Below are positions 3,600-64,000 of a stretch of 64,000 nucleotides of DNA, one piece after another; the first letter of the stretch is position 1; every line of letters begins with the position of its first letter. The stretch comes from Anolis carolinensis (Eukaryota), in NCBI RefSeq assembly GCF_035594765.1, contig NC_085841.1, positions 62,727,636 through 62,791,635 of the forward strand. Direction: 5' to 3'. Position numbers and translations under genes: made by a program. A model generated the notes under the pieces. That model ran no database searches and was not told where the DNA came from. It saw nothing but the letters and a program-made list of their open reading frames with translations.

Positions 3600-4130
3600 A
3601 TCTATAATCTGTATTGGTGGGGACGAAGGAGAGGGCCTTCTCAGTGGTGGCCCCGACTTTGGAACTCCCTCCCAAGGGAAATTAGGCAAGCCCCTACATT
3701 CTTTTCCTTTCGCAGGATTTGAAAACCTAGATGTTTCAGCTTGTATTTAAGAACACCTAGTACCTAGTTATAAATGCCCAGTTCCTAGGTTCCACAATAA
3801 TATGCTGTTCACCTCACTTTATCCAATACCCGGCCCTATGATACGCTGCTTGTACTATCTCATGCCCAGCGCTTTTATAGCCTGGTCACACCCATTGTAC
3901 TACTGGCAATGGCTTTGTTGAGTATTGTTTTGAGTTTTAACACTGCTGTTTTACACTCTTATGCTTGAGTGAATTGTGCTTTTATCCAGATTGTTATATT
4001 TATGTTTTTATTTTAATTGTGTTTTTGCTTTGATAGATTGTTTTGTATTCGTGCCTGTGGGCATTTTGTCCCATATATAAGCCACCCTGAGTCCCTTCAG
4101 ACAGATAGTGGTGGGGTATAAGAATAAAGT
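3600..4130 (+). mobile_element. L2 LINE 3' fragment
   Basis: RAFSVVAPxLWNSLP-like ORF2 end (agggccttctcagtggtggccccgactttggaactccctccc), followed by the L2-type tail ataagccaccctgagtcccttc...ggggtataagaataaa. Confidence 0.65.
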
Positions 4131-4765
4131 TATTATCATTATTATTATTTTACTGATACAAAAACATAGTATGACACAGAAAATGAGATATATATGTTGG
4201 ATTTCGTATCACAAAACACAAGTCGAACACTGCCAAAGCATTAGCATGTATTTTCGAATGATGTGCACAGATCCAAGTAAGGTGGCCTTTTGCAGTTGAC
4301 AGACTGTAATTTTGTCAATGTTTATTGTTTTCAAATACTGGCTGAGATCTTTTGGCACAGCACCCAGTGTGCCCATTACCACTGGGACCACCTATACTGA
4401 TTTATGCCAGACCCTTTGCAGTTCGATTTTGAGGTCCTGATAATGGCTGAGTTTTTCCTGTTGTTTTTCATCTGTTCGACTGTCAGCTGGTATGGAACAT
4501 AAATAATCCAAAAAAATTTCTTTTCCACAATTGTGAGGTCTGGTGTATTGTGTTCCGAAAGGCTGTCAGTCTGAATTCGAAAGTCCCACACTATTTTTGC
4601 GTGTTCATTTTCCACTACCTTTGCAGGTTTGTGATCCTACCAGTTCTTTACTACTGGCAGGTGGTACTTGTGACATAAGTTCCAATGAATCATTTGGGCC
4701 ATGTAGTTGTGCCTGTTTGTAGTCCATCTGTGCAATTTTCTTGCACCTGTAAGGATGCTGAGAGC
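4130..4765 (-). mobile_element. R4/Dong-clade non-LTR retrotransposon 3' fragment (restriction-like endonuclease domain)
   Basis: Frameshifted ORFs 4376-4615 (WDFRIQTD..HNTPDLTIVEK) and 4209-4391 (VPVVMGTLGAVPK..QLQKATLLGS) carry REL-domain motifs. The element ends in a (TAA)n tract. Confidence 0.8.
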
Positions 4766-51343: not shown

Positions 51344-52029
51344 TCAGAGGCAGACGTCTAAATGTTCATTAATGTTTGCTTCCAAAACCTCAGACTGGCA
51401 GACAGGGCAGCGAACCTTTTTCTTTTGATTACTGACAGAAGGCGTCACAGTTTTTATGGCTGCTGGTTCAGCCTCACTTTTCACCAAAGGCTTTTTCTTT
51501 ATAAAATAGTTTTCAAAGGCAGTTGTGTCTTCCATTCTTGCCCGTTTGGATGCTCCGCCATTTTGTGGGCTGTCATTTCCATGGGATGCAATGTAGGATT
51601 TAGGTGTTGAAGTAGTTGGTTGAAAAATACTTTTTTCTGGTGTCTCCTTTGACAGTGGCTCTGATGTATCATTTGTAAAGCTTGAATTAGATCTTCTTTC
51701 AGTAAACAATACATTTTTAATTGGGGATCCATTAACATTCCTGTAAACTTTTTTGTTAGCAACTGAAACTTTAGGAAGCATGAGTCTAGAAGTAAAATTA
51801 TTTTTGTCTTCAATGGAAGAAAATGAAGGGGGAACATTTGTAAAGGAAAAGTTATCTTCGTTTTTAGGATTTTTTCTAGTCAAATCAGATGGTGAATGAT
51901 ACCGTGACCTCTTGTTGTTGCTGGGACTTGTGGTTTTCTCTGATGATGTCATATCACTTTTCCTTCCAAGGACATAACCTTTTCCACTAAAAGGAATTAT
52001 GCTTTGTATGTTCTTTCCATCCGTTATTC
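51344..52029 (-). CDS. SPRTN: SPRTN exon 5 (SHP box, NLS-like motif, UBZ4 finger)
   Basis: tttacag|(G)ITDGKNIQSIIPFSGKGYVLG (SHP)...KRARMED...VRCPVCQSEVLEANINEHLDVCL* (UBZ4); 686 nt. Confidence 0.95.
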
Positions 52030-52369
52030 CTGTAAAAACTCAAGAAAAAATAGTTTTAAAATGTTGTAATCTGCTTTTTGTTTTTTCGTGTCAGGAGCAA
52101 CTGGAGTTGCTTCTGGAGTGTAATCTGTTAAAAATAGTTAATTATATCTCTTTGTCATCCCATTAATAATTTCATAAACATGTTTTTTTAAATGCAGTAG
52201 TTAGCTATGACACACAATACTGAAAACGCCAGATGTGAATTAATTTTCATGCTAGCTAGGTTCACATAATTAGGTTCAACATCACTCATCCCTTCACTGC
52301 ACGACAGTATTCACAAGCAACTGTTAAAGACAAACAGCATCTGGAACAGATATATTAAAGTGTGATTTC

Positions 52370-52890: not shown

Positions 52891-53165
52891 ATAATTAAAA
52901 AATATTCAGTTTGAAAACTCCCAGTATATTCAGCAGGAGTTTGGATATTCAAACTATATTGTTTTCTTGTCTTGCCGAGTCTGATATTTTAGTTCAAATG
53001 CTCACAGCTCAAAGCTTATCTGGATACTAAGAATTTCTGTTTAGTAAATACAATAAAATAAGCATACTACATTGAGTCTCTCTATTTTGTGATCTCAGAA
53101 AGTATGTAATTCACATTTTCCAGAAAAAAAATTCATTGGTAAAGATAGAAACAAGACTTAAATAC

Positions 53166-53424
53166 CTTTGCCATTGGCTGGAACTTCTGCTTGACTGTTC
53201 TTCTCTTTGTCTTTCTTTGCGTAGTTCTCTGGCTCTTTGATTTTGGTAAATGTACCGCCACAAGTCTGTTGATGATCAGACCACCAGTAGTCATTTGCAG
53301 AGGGTGCTCTGTTTATTGCACGCTTCACATAGCCAAAATATGGCATTCTTTTTTGACAAGGACCGTTGCAGCGCCACCAGTGCTGGCGATAAAAATCCAC
53401 CTCATCGTGAAAATTATGATAGAC
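53166..53424 (-). CDS. SPRTN: SPRTN exon 4 (zinc-binding subdomain)
   Basis: ttag|VYHNFHDEVDFYRQHWWRCNGPCQKRMPYFGYVKRAINRAPSANDYWWSDHQQTCGGTFTKIKEPEN...K(G)|gtattt; 259 nt. Confidence 0.97.
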
Positions 53425-54433: not shown

Positions 54434-54500
54434 GTCTAGTCTGTTGTACTTCAAGCATTGAGAAGTTTACAAATTACAGTGCCTCACAGATAATGTTTAC

Positions 54501-54629
54501 CGTAATATTAGTGCCAGTTAAGCGATTTATCCGATCCATGTGTTTGCAGAACTCAGGGCCATGAGAATCATGATCTTTGTTATTATAAGTGACAAACAAC
54601 AGAGCATGAATCATTTCATGCAAAAGAGT
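54501..54629 (-). CDS. SPRTN: SPRTN exon 3 (HEXXH metalloprotease active site)
   Basis: ttcag|TLLHEMIHALLFVTYNNKDHDSHGPEFCKHMDRINRLTGTNIT|gtaaac; 129 nt. Confidence 0.97.
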
Positions 54630-55625
54630 CTGAAATTTAAAAAAAATCACTGGATTAGTTGAAGTGTTTATTTCTTAATAAGAAGCAGTTATCTACAATT
54701 GACTTAAAACAGAGATTGGCAGAAACAGTTTAAAATAAGCACTGTTCATTGTAATCGATCTGGCCTTTAAACTAAAATCAAAATGCCAAAGCTGGCAAAC
54801 AAGGAAAGGAACAAAGAAGGATGCAGGAGCTCAAAATTCACAGCCAGCTTTATAGGATGTCAAATTTATTAGTCTGACCTGACATTTTATTTGACCTGAC
54901 ACCCAAGTCCATAAATGAGGTGGGCAAGAGTAAATACATGTCTGACTGTGACAACTACGTGAGCTAGTACAGTTGGGTGAGAGATACTTCCTCTCTTCAG
55001 ACTTTTTCTGGGCACTGGGGTTGTGTTACTTTTAAAGGGCTCTTAATTTTTGCCAGAAGAGAAATGTGATTCTATGTTTTTCTTGAAACGAAAATGTGAG
55101 GTGAAGTGAGTGTTAATATTTTTGTTGTTTTTGTATACAGCAAATTACCTCAAAACAAAACAAAATTATTTTCCATTTTAAGCATTTAATTTTGTGATGC
55201 CTCTCCTTCTGTACAAATTTCAAAGGTTGAAGATCTGAGAAGCATATTTCTTTAAAATCAAAGTTAAAGTATATTCAATATGCTACATGCATCACACCCA
55301 CCTTACTTTTTGACAGCTGCTCAAATCATTGGATCCTATTATTTTAGAGCAGTGGTTCTTAACTTTTAGTCTGACAGGTGCTTTGGACTTCAGTTCCCAT
55401 AATTCCAAACGGCTGGTAAGATGGCTATGATTTCTGGAAGTTGAAATCCAAAATACCTGGAGGACCAAAGGTTAGGAACTACTGTTTTAGAGGATTAAAA
55501 ATCACTTACAAAAGATAGAGTACTCCCTTAAGCACAGCTGTGTCTCTAAACATCTAAGAACATCAACAGCATTAAAAGCAGAAGACAAATGCAGTCACAT
55601 TATTTAGCAGAGGGAAAGGAAATTT

Positions 55626-56360: not shown

Positions 56361-56980
56361 TTCTCGAGACATCCTATCATGTTTGCAAATCACCGGTTTT
56401 GTTCCCCTCCGGAGGGAGTCCCCTACCACCAGCACACGTCTGTGATGCACGTCTACTGTGATGACTAACAGGGTCACCTTCCTGTAAGGTGCTCCTCAGG
56501 TCTCCTGAGACCAAGAGCCATATAACCCAAACTATCAAAGCAGATAATTCATATTATCTGTTTTGAACTGGATTATCTGAGTCCACACTGCCATATAATC
56601 CAGTTCAATGTGGATTTTATACAGCTGTGTAGAAGGCTCCATACCCTGTTGTCCTCGTTCTTGTTATCACTTTTGACTGAAATCTGTAACTCTAAACTGG
56701 CCTCCTCCTCAAGCATCCCCCCCCCCTCTGCATCATCAAGAACAATCTAGTCAGTTATGTCCAAGACCCCTTCAGAGATAAATGATCTGTCTTTCCTATC
56801 CTGGGGCTTAATAAACTCATATCAAATAGGACATCAAACATAATGTTCATATAAGGAGCTAGATAACTACTATTAAGATTCAAGGGCCTTCTGGACACAT
56901 GAATGTACAGGCATGCTAGCTACAATAAATATACTACAATTTGTTCCATGTCTCTCTAAAAAGACTACCATCAACAGTAC

Positions 56981-57080
56981 CTCTACAAGGTCCTTCCTTG
57001 GTCGCAACTTTAGAAGGGGCTCACTAAGTCGAATGGAGCACATTCCACCACGGCCTTCATAGCAGCAAACTCCTGCACAT
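56981..57080 (-). CDS. SPRTN: SPRTN exon 2
   Basis: ctag|(L)CAGVCCYEGRGGMCSIRLSEPLLKLRPRKDLVE|gtactg; 100 nt. Confidence 0.97.
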
Positions 57081-57657
57081 CTAGAAGAGTATAAAGCAAA
57101 AACAACAAACATTTACTTTCTACTGCATGTATGTATAACACATTAGGTTTATTGCCTTACTTGAAATAGAAGGCTGGACGATAGTTCTTGGGAGTAAATA
57201 ATCAGGATCCTTCTTTTTTACAGTAAATTTATGTTAGAAAACCTAAGACTGTGATTAGTACCCATTTTTTCAACAAGTTTATTGATCAACAAGTGAACTG
57301 TCACATCTTCCTGACTTCTAATTTGATATCACATACCGCAAGCTATTTTTAAATTGGATACAAAGTCTAACCTAAGAGACTGGTACCCAATGTTTTATTT
57401 ACTAATTGTAAGTGTATTTATTAAGAAACAGGTTCATTATTATTCAATAACTTAAGCTAGTCATAAATAAAATATCACTCAAGTGTAAATTTAGATTTTT
57501 TTTCTTAGTCTTTTCTCTTCCCCATCTTTTTTCCTTTGGGGGTGGTTGTAATCAATTTCACTTTCCCCAGGAGCCTTACACAATTATAGTGCTGTCATTC
57601 CACTTTAACAATCACACCTACACCGTGGGGAATACTTAGGTTTAGAATTTGGGGAGC

Positions 57658-60527: not shown

Positions 60528-60681
60528 CTGTATATGCAAGTGTTCCGAACACCGGAAACACATCCAAGCAGGGCGCACTGTGGGCCCCGGCCGTTTGTTT
60601 CGGAGGAGGCCTGCTGAGCCTTCTTGGCTTGGGGAGCCCCAAGCGAGGCCCCGCCCGCCCGCCGGCCCGCTCCTCACGTAC

Positions 60682-60923
60682 AGCGTCATGCGGGGGCTCC
60701 ACTTCACCTCCACGGCCTCCAGGGCCCCCCAGAAGAGGCTCTGGTTGAATTGCACGAAGAGGCCTCGCACGTCCGGACTGGGATCCAGCAGCTCCCAGCT
60801 CTCATCCACCAGCGACAGCGGCCGCGCCGGTGAGGAGGCCGCCTTGAGGGAGGCCGCACGCTCGCCCTCCTCCGAGTTCCACTCCTCTTGGAGCCGCAGC
60901 GCCAGCAGGAAGTCGCCGTCCAT
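60682..60923 (-). CDS. SPRTN: SPRTN (Spartan/DVC1 DNA-dependent metalloprotease) exon 1
   Basis: MDGDFLLALRLQEEW...SLVDESWELLDPSPDVRGLFVQFN..LFWGALEAVEVKWSPRMT(L)|gtacgt, phase 2. The five exons total 1416 nt = 471 aa plus stop. Confidence 0.95.
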
Positions 60924-61276
60924 TGAAGCGCAGCCTCTCGTTGAGCCCACGGTGTTCAAATCCCGGCGCATGCGCTGTGGGATTGTTGTCTTCCTGCCTC
61001 TAAAAGGGAGTCTCGCCGTCCACTGAAGCGCAGCCTCTCGTTGATCCCACGGCGTTCAAATCCCGGCGCATGCGCTGTGGGTTTGTTCTCTTCCTGCCTC
61101 TGACAGAGTCGCGCGCCTCGCGTAACTGCGACGAGCCGCGCTTTGACGTTTCACGCACCGGCGCACGTAAGCGGTCTTCCGGTCAGGGGCGGGCCCTGCT
61201 TCCGGCGCAGTGACTGACGACTTTCTTCGCGTCGTCCTCCTTTCCTTCCTTGGCGAAGGTTCGTCTCGGCCCGGCC
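60924..61276. promoter_or_regulatory. SPRTN/EXOC8 bidirectional CpG-island promoter
   Basis: 353 bp between divergent ATGs. Two NRF1 GCGCATGCGC, two CHR-like TTTGAA (minus), two ETS CTTCCGG (~61176, ~61199), GC box GGGGCGGG (~61186), TGACGT (~61144). Confidence 0.9.
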
Positions 61277-62842
61277 ATGGCGCTGTCTCTGGGCGAGGTG
61301 GCTCCGGGCGGCGGCGGAGGAGCGGGTGGGAGCCGCTTGAGGCGGCAGCTGGAGTCCGGGAGCTACGCGGCCGAGGAGTACGTGAAGCAGCTCTCGCAGC
61401 AGTCGGACGGCGACCGGGACTTGCAGGAGCACCGCCAGCGCATCCAGGCCCTGAGCGAGGAGACGGCGCAGAGCCTCAAGCGCAACGTCTACCAGAACTA
61501 CCGGCAGTTCATCGAGACGGCGCGCGAGATCAGCTACCTGGAGAGCGAGATGTACCAGCTCAGCCACATCCTGACCGAGCAGAAGGGCATCCTGGAGGCC
61601 GTCACCCAGGCGCTGTTGTTCTTGCAGGCCGACCGCGACGACCCCAGGGCGGCGGGGGCCGCCTCCTCCTCCTCGGACCCGCACGCCAACCCCTTCCTGC
61701 CCCTCTCGGCCAAGGAAGCCGCCGCGGCCAGCGAGGAGGGCCGCCAGCGCAGCCTGACCACCCTCCTGGAGAAGGTGGAGGGCTGCCGAGACCTGCTCCC
61801 CGAGAGCCCCGGCAAGTACCTGGTCTACAACGGGGACCTGGTGGAGTATGACGCCGACCACATGGTCCAGGTCCAGAAGGTACACGCCTTCCTGATGAAC
61901 GACTGCCTGCTGGTGGCGGCCTGGCTGCCCAACCGCCGGGGCACCTACCGCTACGACGCCCTCTACCCACTGGACGGGTTGGCCGTTGTGAATGTCAAGG
62001 ACAACCCACCCATGAAAGACATGTTCAAGCTGCTCATGTTCCCTGAGAGCCGCATCTTCCAGGCTGAGAATGCCAAGATCAAGAAGGAGTGGCTGGAGGT
62101 CCTGGAGGAGACCAAGCGGAGCCGCGTGCTGAGCGAGAAGCGAAGGCTGGAGCAGGAGGTGCCGGCGGCCCGCACGCCTCTCCCAGCCCCTCCAGAGGCC
62201 ACCAACCCCTTTGAGGAGGATGAGGAGGAAGCCGGAGAGGGGGGGACCCCAGAGGAAGAAGTGGTGGATCTCTCCCTGGAGTGGATTCAGGAGTTGCCTG
62301 AAGATCTGGATGTCTGCATTGCCCAGCGAGACTTCGAAGGGGCAGTTGACTTGCTGGATAAGCTGAATGAGTATCTAGGGGATAAGCCCGTGACCCAGCC
62401 GGTCAGGGAGCTACGCGCCAAAGTTGATGAGAGAATCAGGCAGCTCACTGACGTGCTTGTGTTTGAGCTCTCACCAGATAGGTCACTGCGAGGTGGGCCC
62501 AGAGCGACCCGTCGTGCTGTTTCTCAGCTCATTCGGTTGGGTCAGTCAACCAAGGCGTGCGAACTTTTCCTGCGGAACAGGGAAGCGGCCGTTCACACAG
62601 CCATCCGACAGTTGCGCATTGAAGGTGCCACTCTACTGTACATTCACAAGCTTTGCCATGTCTTCTTCACCAGCCTGCTAGAAACTGCAAAGGAGTTTGA
62701 GACGGACTTTGCTGGAAACAGTGGGTGCTATTCGGCTTTTGTTGTCTGGGCTCGATCAGCAATGAGGATGTTCGTGGATGCGTTTAGCAAGCAGGTGTTT
62801 GACAGTAAAGAGAGCTTATCTACTGCTGCTGAATGTGTAAAG
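61277..62842 (+). CDS. EXOC8: Exocyst complex component 8 (Exo84), first coding exon (522 codons); C-terminal part not in window
   Basis: SRLRRQLESG..YVKQLSQQSDGDRDLQEHRQRIQAL..NYRQFIETAREISYLESEM; PH domain (FLMNDCLLVA..KLLMFPESRIFQAENAKIKKEWL); helical domain WIQELPEDLDVCIAQRDFEGAVDLL..SLSTAAECVK; then AAG|GTAAGG. Confidence 0.95.
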
Positions 62843-64000
62843 GTAAGGGCCTAAAGTGACAAGATGGGGGGAAATTGTGTTACCCTTAATTACATGTCCT
62901 CTAGATCACAGCTTCATAAAACTGTGGGCTCCGACCTCAAGTGGGGTCCCTTCGCTCAATGTTGGGGTCCAGAAACATTTGTCTACAGTAAAAGTTTTCT
63001 GAATGTCGGCTAGTGGGTGTTTTGACATTTGCACAAATCTGTTGTGCAGTGTTTACAGTGAATTCTGCAGAAGATGCTTCAGGTATCGTTCATAAAAAGG
63101 AAAATCAGTCTGTTTAGCAATCTTCACAAGTGCTGATTTGTTATCACTAAATATCCTATTGCTACTTATTTTATATACTTGTGTACCCAGGATCACACAA
63201 AAAATTCTTAGGCCAAAAGGAGTCCTGAGTGCAAAAGTTTAAGAATCCCTACTGTGTATGGACACTGCCCTTAGTTCTTTAGTTTTCCAAATAGTATCCT
63301 TGAATGTAGAAGCGAAGTATTGAGTCATCTAGCCCAACTTCCTGTTCTGAGGCAGGATATTCTTTGTGTATGCAGTTATTTATGATGGCTGTGGCTTCAT
63401 GTGCTTCACTTATCCCATGACTCAAGCGCTACTCCAATCATTTCCCCTGTTTTGCTTTCTTGTGCTCTCAAAAGATCTATTGCTATATTTCATAGCAGGG
63501 TAATACCTGTTTTTCTTGCCTCCCTAGCACTAAAGAACCCCGCCCTCTTATCATTTTTGCAGCTAATGTGCAAACTCACTCTGTAACTTGGCTTTATCCC
63601 AAATGCTTTGTTCCCATACTTTCAAGACAAGGTTTTCCTCCTTGTCTTGACTGCCAAAGAAAGACAGCATGTACTGAAAAATGTAGCAGAGAATATAGGT
63701 TGTAATAGTCAGGACAATCTACAGTGATGGTGAGAGATTTTGAGCACTTAATTTTAATCACATTTGGAAAATATTGGAGGGGGGAATTATATCCCAACTC
63801 CACCCCCTTTCCTTCAATTCTTAGCACCATGGAGTGAGTTACAGATTGCCTTTTTCTGATGGCTAGAATGGTGGCAGAAGTGGAAATAAATGCAGTGTCA
63901 TGTACTGCTTTCTGCTTTCCTGGCAGGTTTCTATTTAAAAAACTAATGTTAAAGATTTATGGACCTGACATGACTCAAATTAATGAGGACTGTGTTTTTT

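What the first reader, a model, noticed from the sequence alone, without database searches (positions are those of the whole stretch)
62820..62860. EXOC8, a single-exon gene in human, is interrupted here by a splice donor after a 1.57-kb exon
Seen: EXOC8 similarity runs without a break for 522 codons and stops at ...ECVK. A consensus donor AAG|GTAAGG (phase 0) follows, then an in-frame TAA 4 codons later and AT-rich, repeat-containing DNA. Known from recall: human EXOC8 is intronless and continues ECVKVAKEHC... for roughly 200 more residues. Inference: this is either a rare amniote intron gain or the last survivor of ancestral introns removed by cDNA-mediated loss. In the second case the 5' introns were lost and a 3' one kept, the reverse of the usual 3' bias. 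Intron retention would give a 525-aa Exo84 lacking its C-terminus.
Basis: partly seen in the sequence, partly recalled or inferred. Interest (0 to 1): 0.7.

Follow-up and report, generated by a model that had tools for sequence, protein, structure and literature searches.

The report
Intron gained in reptile-bird EXOC8 gene
This lizard's EXOC8 gene, one unbroken exon in humans, is split by a 2.2-kb intron found at the same spot in snake-, gecko- and bird-like sequences, and it was likely inserted once in the ancestor of reptiles and birds, a rare kind of event in land vertebrates.

Summary
The intron is real. Exon 1 (522 codons, ends at 62842) is followed by a 2,198-bp GT-AG phase-0 intron; 1 kb beyond the window a 202-codon exon starts VAKEHC. 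The two exons translate exactly to the 724-aa RefSeq EXOC8 of Anolis carolinensis, so this is neither truncation nor misassembly, and the splice is already implied by the annotation. It is not peculiar to this lizard: gecko-, skink-, snake- and bird-like ORFs break at the same codon, and a bird-like contig has a 645-bp GT-AG intron there. None of 174 mammal-, frog- and fish-like ORFs breaks there; frog- and perch-like ones carry their own introns at other codons, and invertebrate ones break 8 codons downstream. Human EXOC8 is a published orphan retrogene, and SPRTN sits head-to-head in anole and fish. Best reading: one intron gain at an AG|GT site in the sauropsid ancestor; the 'last surviving ancestral intron' reading is not supported. 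No junction read was seen; no turtle, crocodile, tuatara, monotreme, shark or lungfish DNA was available. I found no paper on it. A modest new example of vertebrate intron gain; the bolder point is that this retrogene seems to have regained introns three times independently.

The parts
61277..62842 (+). EXOC8 exon 1, coding part (522 codons; Vps51/Exo84 N-terminal, PH and most of Exo84_C domains)
   Evidence: identical to P0436 1-522
62843..62848 (+). 5' splice site GTAAGG, phase 0, after AAG (K522)
   Evidence: bird-like L009 has AAG|GTAAGA at the same codon
62843..64000 (+). Intron, first 1,158 of 2,198 bases. It goes on past the window to L002:4676 (G000:C1:62792675), ending TTGTTTTTGTAG. 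Beyond the window lie a 328-bp inverted-repeat element inside the intron (L002:4194-4521) and EXOC8 exon 2 (coding part L002:4677-5285, VAKEHC...TTSVV and stop)
   Evidence: exon 2 identical to P0436 523-724; for the element (40 of 40 scored candidates match at 87-100%, one being this copy; 4,049 candidates)
60680..60923 (-). SPRTN first coding exon, head-to-head with EXOC8 (lower bound approximate; further SPRTN exons within about 56876-57112, 54477-54674, 53161-53424, 51347-52039)
   Evidence: SprT-like PF10263, SPRTN_ZBD PF22934; the same exon is head-to-head with exoc8 in fish-like L008, E 2e-27

Best explanation
A spliceosomal GT-AG intron of 2,198 bp splits the anole EXOC8 coding sequence between K522 and V523, and it was likely gained once, in the common ancestor of lizards, snakes and birds, by insertion into an older intronless EXOC8 retrogene. 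Shown: the two exons, the splice signals, identity with the annotated 724-aa protein, the same break in squamate-like and bird-like sequences, and its absence from mammal-, frog- and fish-like ORFs. Inferred: that splicing is constitutive and yields normal Exo84; that the bony-vertebrate ancestor was intronless here; that turtles, crocodiles and tuatara share the intron. The insertion was precise (no residue gained or lost) at an AG|GT proto-splice site, which fits duplication of AGGT by tandem duplication, transposon insertion or break repair; which of these acted cannot be read any more, since anole and bird introns share no alignable sequence.
For: Exon 2 found, product identical to RefSeq. 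Of 42 unnamed sauropsid-like ORFs, 21 break on the 5' side of the site, 10 on the 3' side, 6 start at its GTG, 3 are full length, 2 do not reach it; of 174 others none breaks there, 97 span it, 75 do not reach it, 2 start at the GTG. The tree puts breaking ORFs with geckos, a colubrid snake, other lizards and galloanserine birds. Bird-like DNA L009: 645-bp GT-AG intron, AAG|GT...AG|GTA. Named penguin (P0121) and cuckoo-roller (P0047, P0049) models break at the same codon. 50 of 69 neoteleost-like and 3 of 24 amphibian-like proteins that span the site carry read-through of a different intron, so they come from unspliced sequence. Invertebrate breaks fall at 530|531 (P0139, P0145, P0167, P0545, P0520). 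Human EXOC8 listed as a single-exon orphan retrogene, compared with Drosophila as parent orthologue (PMC3548309). SPRTN head-to-head in anole and fish.
Against: The outgroup evidence is mostly protein from ORF calls on unnamed contigs, not aligned genomes; full-length ORFs may come from RNA. No DNA-level evidence for turtles, crocodiles, tuatara, monotremes, marsupials, salamanders, caecilians, lungfish, coelacanth, sharks or lampreys. One rodent-like ORF (P0429) starts at the GTG of V523, as six sauropsid-like ones do; a fish ORF (P0366) does the same although fish exons span the site, so a start-codon choice can explain it, but it is not resolved. One Menidia gene model (P0150) jumps into VAKEHC from upstream, while another model of that species (P0123) is continuous. 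The counted ORFs are not independent: many are close relatives and at most 15 members per cluster were listed.
Confidence: 0.72

Rival explanations
1. The intron was gained in a stem amniote and precisely lost again in mammals (or in therians or placentals) by recombination with a cDNA.
For: Precise intron deletion through processed copies is a recognised route (TOGA2 preprint passages; PMC3443670 passages), and losses outnumber gains in mammals (start of abstract of PMC3257199 in the listing). No monotreme sequence was seen; the one marsupial-labelled protein (P0229) nests among placentals and was not used. P0429 is unexplained.
Against: Needs two events instead of one. 17 of 23 mammal-like unnamed ORFs span the site and none breaks there, including a full-length ORF on an 11-kb ENA contig (P0059) and a JGI ORF identical to beaver (P0426).
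Confidence: 0.14
2. The intron is an ancestral one that survived only in sauropsids, perhaps the invertebrate 530|531 intron shifted by 24 nt.
For: An invertebrate break lies only 8 codons away and is also phase 0. The state in sharks, lamprey, lungfish and coelacanth was not seen.
Against: Needs at least three independent losses (ray-fins, frogs, mammals) and, for the shifted version, a 24-nt slide that leaves the protein unchanged. No non-vertebrate fragment ends or starts at 522|523 among the 560 proteins held (two end at about 526 and are ambiguous). Frog and percomorph introns sit at other codons, a pattern of separate gains into an empty gene.
Confidence: 0.09
3. Birds and squamates gained introns independently at the same AG|GT site.
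For: No alignable sequence between the anole and bird introns (best hit 16 nt, E 0.05). This gene seems prone to gains at AG|G sites.
Against: The anole coding sequence has 12 AGGT sites, and gains in other lineages used other sites; lack of intron similarity is expected after so long.
Confidence: 0.04
4. Truncated gene or assembly error; the 525-aa product is what is made.
For: The second exon lies outside the window, and an in-frame stop follows the donor.
Against: Intact exon 2 with a canonical acceptor, 100% identical in protein to Anolis sagrei over 202 residues; independent contigs cross the donor; the same split in birds and snakes.
Confidence: 0.01

Closest known systems
Human EXOC8 as an 'orphan' retrogene (Ciomborowska et al., PMC3548309)
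   Same: Same gene; single-exon in human; orthology supported by SPRTN adjacency and by the tree.
   Different: The passages, section 15 and the one readable supplement say nothing of an intron in sauropsid, frog or fish EXOC8; Fig. 1 and two supplementary files could not be read.
Lineage-specific intron gains in percomorph fishes: MC2R, MC5R, P2Y, CHRM3 (PMC3151243) and serpins (PMC2746811)
   Same: Precise new introns at MAG|R proto-splice sites in genes that lack them elsewhere; the three percomorph EXOC8 introns seen here look like further cases.
   Different: [quoted passage not shown]
Intron gain in mammalian retrogenes and domesticated genes (PMC3002245, PMC3565874, PMC3257199; search listing and start of abstract only)
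   Same: An intronless retro-derived gene acquires an intron.
   Different: The two retrogene abstracts speak of intronization of exonic sequence; here no coding residue is lost, so it is an insertion in the middle of a conserved domain.

Membership tests
U2-type spliceosomal intron | GT donor and AG acceptor with consensus context | tested here: met
   AAG|GTAAGG ... TTGTTTTTGTAG|GTG
U2-type spliceosomal intron | Removal restores the conserved reading frame | tested here: met
   522 + 202 codons equal P0436; full-length vertebrate orthologues show no indel at the junction
U2-type spliceosomal intron | Junction seen in RNA | tested here: inconclusive
   No junction contig was laid in the three runs guessed to be RNA; the tool warns that conserved exons are filtered
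Lineage-specific intron gain | Present across the ingroup at one position and phase | tested here: met
   Anole DNA, bird-like DNA L009, gecko-, skink-, snake-, bird-like ORFs; turtles, crocodiles and tuatara not seen
Lineage-specific intron gain | Absent from successive outgroups | tested here: inconclusive
   Absent from placental-, ranoid-frog- and percomorph-like ORFs and from invertebrate fragments; deeper or intermediate outgroup genomes not available
Lineage-specific intron gain | Proto-splice site (MAG|R) at the insertion point | tested here: met
   AAG|GT in anole and bird-like DNA
Gain by tandem duplication or transposon insertion | Intron resembles flanking exon or is filled by one element end to end | tested here: not met
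   No match better than E 0.05 between either intron and the exons; the inverted-repeat element covers 328 of 2,198 bases, 155 bases from the acceptor. Age can erase both signs.
Orphan retrogene EXOC8 orthologue | No multi-exon parent left in the genome; conserved neighbour | tested here: met
   One locus only in G000 (6 of 6 candidates scored); SPRTN head-to-head in anole and fish; EXOC8 and SPRTN adjacent in the cattle gene list

The most novel reading that the evidence does not exclude
EXOC8, an intronless retrogene since early vertebrate evolution, has regained introns independently in at least three lineages, each at its own AG|G-type site and without changing the protein: sauropsids (codon 522|523), ranoid frogs (inside codon 180) and percomorph fish (inside codon 422, 506|507, 589|590), while mammals and probably basal ray-fins stayed intronless. 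Old intronless genes would then be a general trap for intron gain in tetrapods, not only in compact fish genomes.
Probability: 0.55. Interest if true: 0.6.

Novelty: new member of a known kind. Interest (0 to 1): 0.42.

Why it matters
Coding-region intron gains are considered very rare in vertebrates, with the cases in the two abstracts read confined to compact-genome ray-finned fishes (PMC3151243, PMC2746811). A precise gain on the sauropsid stem would be one of few tetrapod examples and a rare genomic marker uniting reptiles and birds. With the frog and fish introns it makes EXOC8 a compact test case for where and when introns arise in a gene whose starting state is known. It has no expected effect on the protein, and the two-exon structure is already implicit in RefSeq, which limits the surprise.

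Tried and rejected
RNA evidence: no RNA holder listed for this stretch. Eleven runs guessed to be RNA hold 0.70 of the words, close to the exon-only share of 0.73, but they are not on record as RNA and this is not used as evidence. The lay on junction plus intron showed no junction contig for the three guessed-RNA runs and was swamped by repeat copies, so it shows neither splicing nor retention. Origin of the intron: no similarity to the exons or to the bird intron; the inverted-repeat element is internal and about 90% alike to other copies, so it is likely a later arrival. First tree run timed out; the FastTree result (SH-like support only, 86 rows chosen by hand from 438 held) was used for placement only. 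Motif flags for mammals and for P0044, P0232, P0288, P0334 were pattern artefacts (4 of the 9 flagged mammal rows were looked at) and were dropped; P0149 was not resolved. Fourteen short fragments assigned by best hit to non-neoteleost fishes are too short and conserved to place, so the fish introns are claimed for percomorph-like sequences only. P0229 (labelled Petaurus) was not used as marsupial evidence. The metagenome scan gave only 2 loci from 333 pattern matches. Literature: eight searches; EXOC8 with 'intronless' gave 2 papers and with 'intron gain' 1, none seen to treat this intron (one of the 2, PMC5407610, seen in the listing only); TOGA2's main text does not name EXOC8 and its supplements were not available; PMC7272323 passages say nothing on exon structure. 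Earlier scan findings: none in three look-ups.

Full report
Observation. The window ends with the start of EXOC8 on the + strand: ATG at 61277, 522 codons to ...STAAECVK at 62842, then GTAAGG; read-through adds V-R-A and stops. Pfam finds the Vps51/Exo84 N-terminal, PH and Exo84_C domains, the last cut at profile position 189 of 205. The window is G000:C1:62727636-62791635. In the stretch beyond it tblastn finds the missing part at L002:4677-5282, 100% identical over 202 residues to Anolis sagrei EXOC8. The intron is 2,198 bp, 36% GC, and ends TTGTTTTTGTAG before GTG GCA AAG GAA CAC. The two exons translate exactly to the 724-aa RefSeq EXOC8 of Anolis carolinensis, P0436, whose contig has the length of C1. 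A search of the genome with P0436 returns these two exons only. An unlabelled run from another study has contigs across the donor and along the intron. So the gene is whole and correctly assembled. Junction reads were not seen.

How widely is the intron shared? No other animal genome is held here, so I used ORFs called on unnamed public contigs, which run into an intron and stop, or start inside one. Three protein searches and three cluster look-ups gave 216 such vertebrate-like ORFs, picked by hand from the tables and sorted by best hit to a panel of 43 named proteins. Of 42 sauropsid-like ORFs, 21 end ECVK-V plus unrelated residues, 10 have unrelated residues before K/Q-VAKEHC, 6 start at the GTG of V523, 3 are full length and 2 do not reach the site. 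A tree (FastTree, SH-like support) places the breaking ORFs with geckos (P0015, P0018), with Pantherophis (P0394, P0395), among other lizards (P0188, 99% like Lerista; P0030) and with galloanserine birds (P0036, P0038, P0195). One metagenome contig with bird best hits, L009, shows it in DNA: a 645-bp intron AAG|GTAAGA...CACAG|GTAGCT. Named models of a penguin (P0121) and a cuckoo-roller (P0047, P0049) break at the same codon. I saw no DNA-level evidence for turtles, crocodiles or tuatara; their state is inferred from their place between birds and squamates (established phylogeny, recalled).

Outgroups. Of 174 non-sauropsid ORFs none breaks at the site; 97 span it, 75 do not reach it, and 2 start at the GTG. 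Spanning alone could reflect RNA, but many are evidently unspliced: 50 of 69 neoteleost-like proteins that span the site show read-through of another intron, some with a whole in-frame intron inside (P0171, P0184-P0186), and three frog-like ORFs begin in a pyrimidine-rich tract and then run unbroken to the C-terminus (P0243, P0245, P0248). For mammals, 17 of 23 span it, among them a full-length ORF on an 11-kb ENA contig; PMC3548309 lists human EXOC8 as a single-exon orphan retrogene (I read its abstract, passages, section 15 and a passage of one of three supplementary files; Fig. 1 with the dating is not held). Against this: rodent-like P0429 starts at the GTG, unexplained, though fish P0366 does so too; and one Menidia model jumps into VAKEHC while another is continuous. 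The ORFs are not independent samples, and two of the searches were aimed at short proteins.

Is it an old intron? A profile anchored on P0436 was run over all 560 proteins held, including the 150 listed by the 50%-cluster search. Non-vertebrate fragments near the site break at 530|531: Saccoglossus (P0139), Bugula (P0145), Portunus (P0167) and two unnamed (P0545, P0520). That is 24 nt downstream. None breaks at 522|523; two end near 526 and are ambiguous. Other vertebrate lineages have introns of their own: percomorph-like sequences inside codon 422 (792-bp GT-AG intron in L008), at 506|507 and at 589|590, and ranoid-frog-like sequences inside codon 180 (protein evidence only). Of 35 ORFs with non-neoteleost ray-fin best hits, 20 are full length (sturgeon-, eel-, catfish-, smelt-like), 1 is partial but spans the site and 14 are short fragments that cannot be placed; this suggests but does not show intronless genes there. 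No position is shared between lineages. SPRTN lies head-to-head with EXOC8 in the anole and in fish-like L008, and the two genes are neighbours in cattle (one passage of PMC12090490), so these are one orthologous locus, not a parent and a retrocopy.

Mechanism. The simplest history is an intronless retrogene in early bony vertebrates, then one precise insertion at K522|V523 on the sauropsid stem (0.72). The site reads AAG|GT in anole and bird-like DNA, the proto-splice sequence at which tandem duplication or transposon insertion can create an intron without changing the protein (passages of PMC3443670). It is one of 12 AGGT sites in the anole coding sequence; another is 506|507, where a fish intron sits. 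The route cannot be read: neither intron resembles the exons or the other, and the 328-bp inverted-repeat element in the anole intron is internal and about 90% alike to other copies. Rivals: gain in stem amniotes and loss in mammals (0.14); an ancestral or slid intron lost at least three times (0.09); parallel gains in birds and squamates (0.04); truncation or error (0.01).

Known and new. Precise gains at MAG|R sites are described for GPCR and serpin genes, in both abstracts only for compact-genome ray-finned fishes (PMC3151243, PMC2746811; abstracts read); gains in mammalian retrogenes are described too (listing only). Eight searches of the open library found no paper on an EXOC8 intron; subscription journals, two supplements of PMC3548309 and TOGA2's supplements were not visible and could hold it. 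The splice itself is implicit in RefSeq proteins. Verdict: observation confirmed; a new member of a known kind; interest 0.42. The bolder reading, three independent returns of introns to one retrogene, I put at 0.55.

Noticed in passing
P0241-P0248 (unnamed, ranoid-frog-like); anole codon 180: Frog-like ORFs stop after ETPGR or start in a pyrimidine-rich tract before R-YLVYNG: an apparent intron inside codon 180 not seen in other lineages. Protein evidence only.
   Followed up: partly
L008:2503-3294 and about 100 unnamed fish-like ORFs: Percomorph-like exoc8 has three introns (inside codon 422, 506|507, 589|590) absent from the anole; one is shown whole in DNA.
   Followed up: partly
P0369: A divergent vertebrate-like ORF runs through 589|590 but leaves homology near residue 636 (LYMAE|V), perhaps yet another intron in an unplaced lineage.
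   Followed up: no
window 62789-62800: An in-frame AAGCAG|GTGTTT 48 nt upstream of the donor coincides with a fish intron position; gene models of Crotalus horridus (P0389) and Naja naja (P0407) splice from it and lose 16 residues, while other models of the same species do not. Predictor artefact or minor isoform.
   Followed up: partly
window 60913-61112: Tandem duplication of 100 bp (89% identical) covering the SPRTN start codon and 5' region, in the 350-bp gap between the SPRTN and EXOC8 start codons.
   Followed up: no
L002:4194-4521; L002:4017-4089 and 4105-4139: Inside the intron: a 328-bp inverted-repeat element with thousands of candidate copies (Tc1/mariner-type MITE by recall), and small tandem duplications of 37 and 18 bp.
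   Followed up: partly
G000:C1:62805131-62809312 and 62821045-62825175 (- strand): Two long open frames (1,394 and 1,377 codons) downstream of EXOC8, probably retrotransposon-derived (guess). Not identified.
   Followed up: no
P0229: The EXOC8 labelled Petaurus breviceps papuanus (a marsupial) is 95% identical to placental proteins and nests among them in the tree; label or tree may be off.
   Followed up: no
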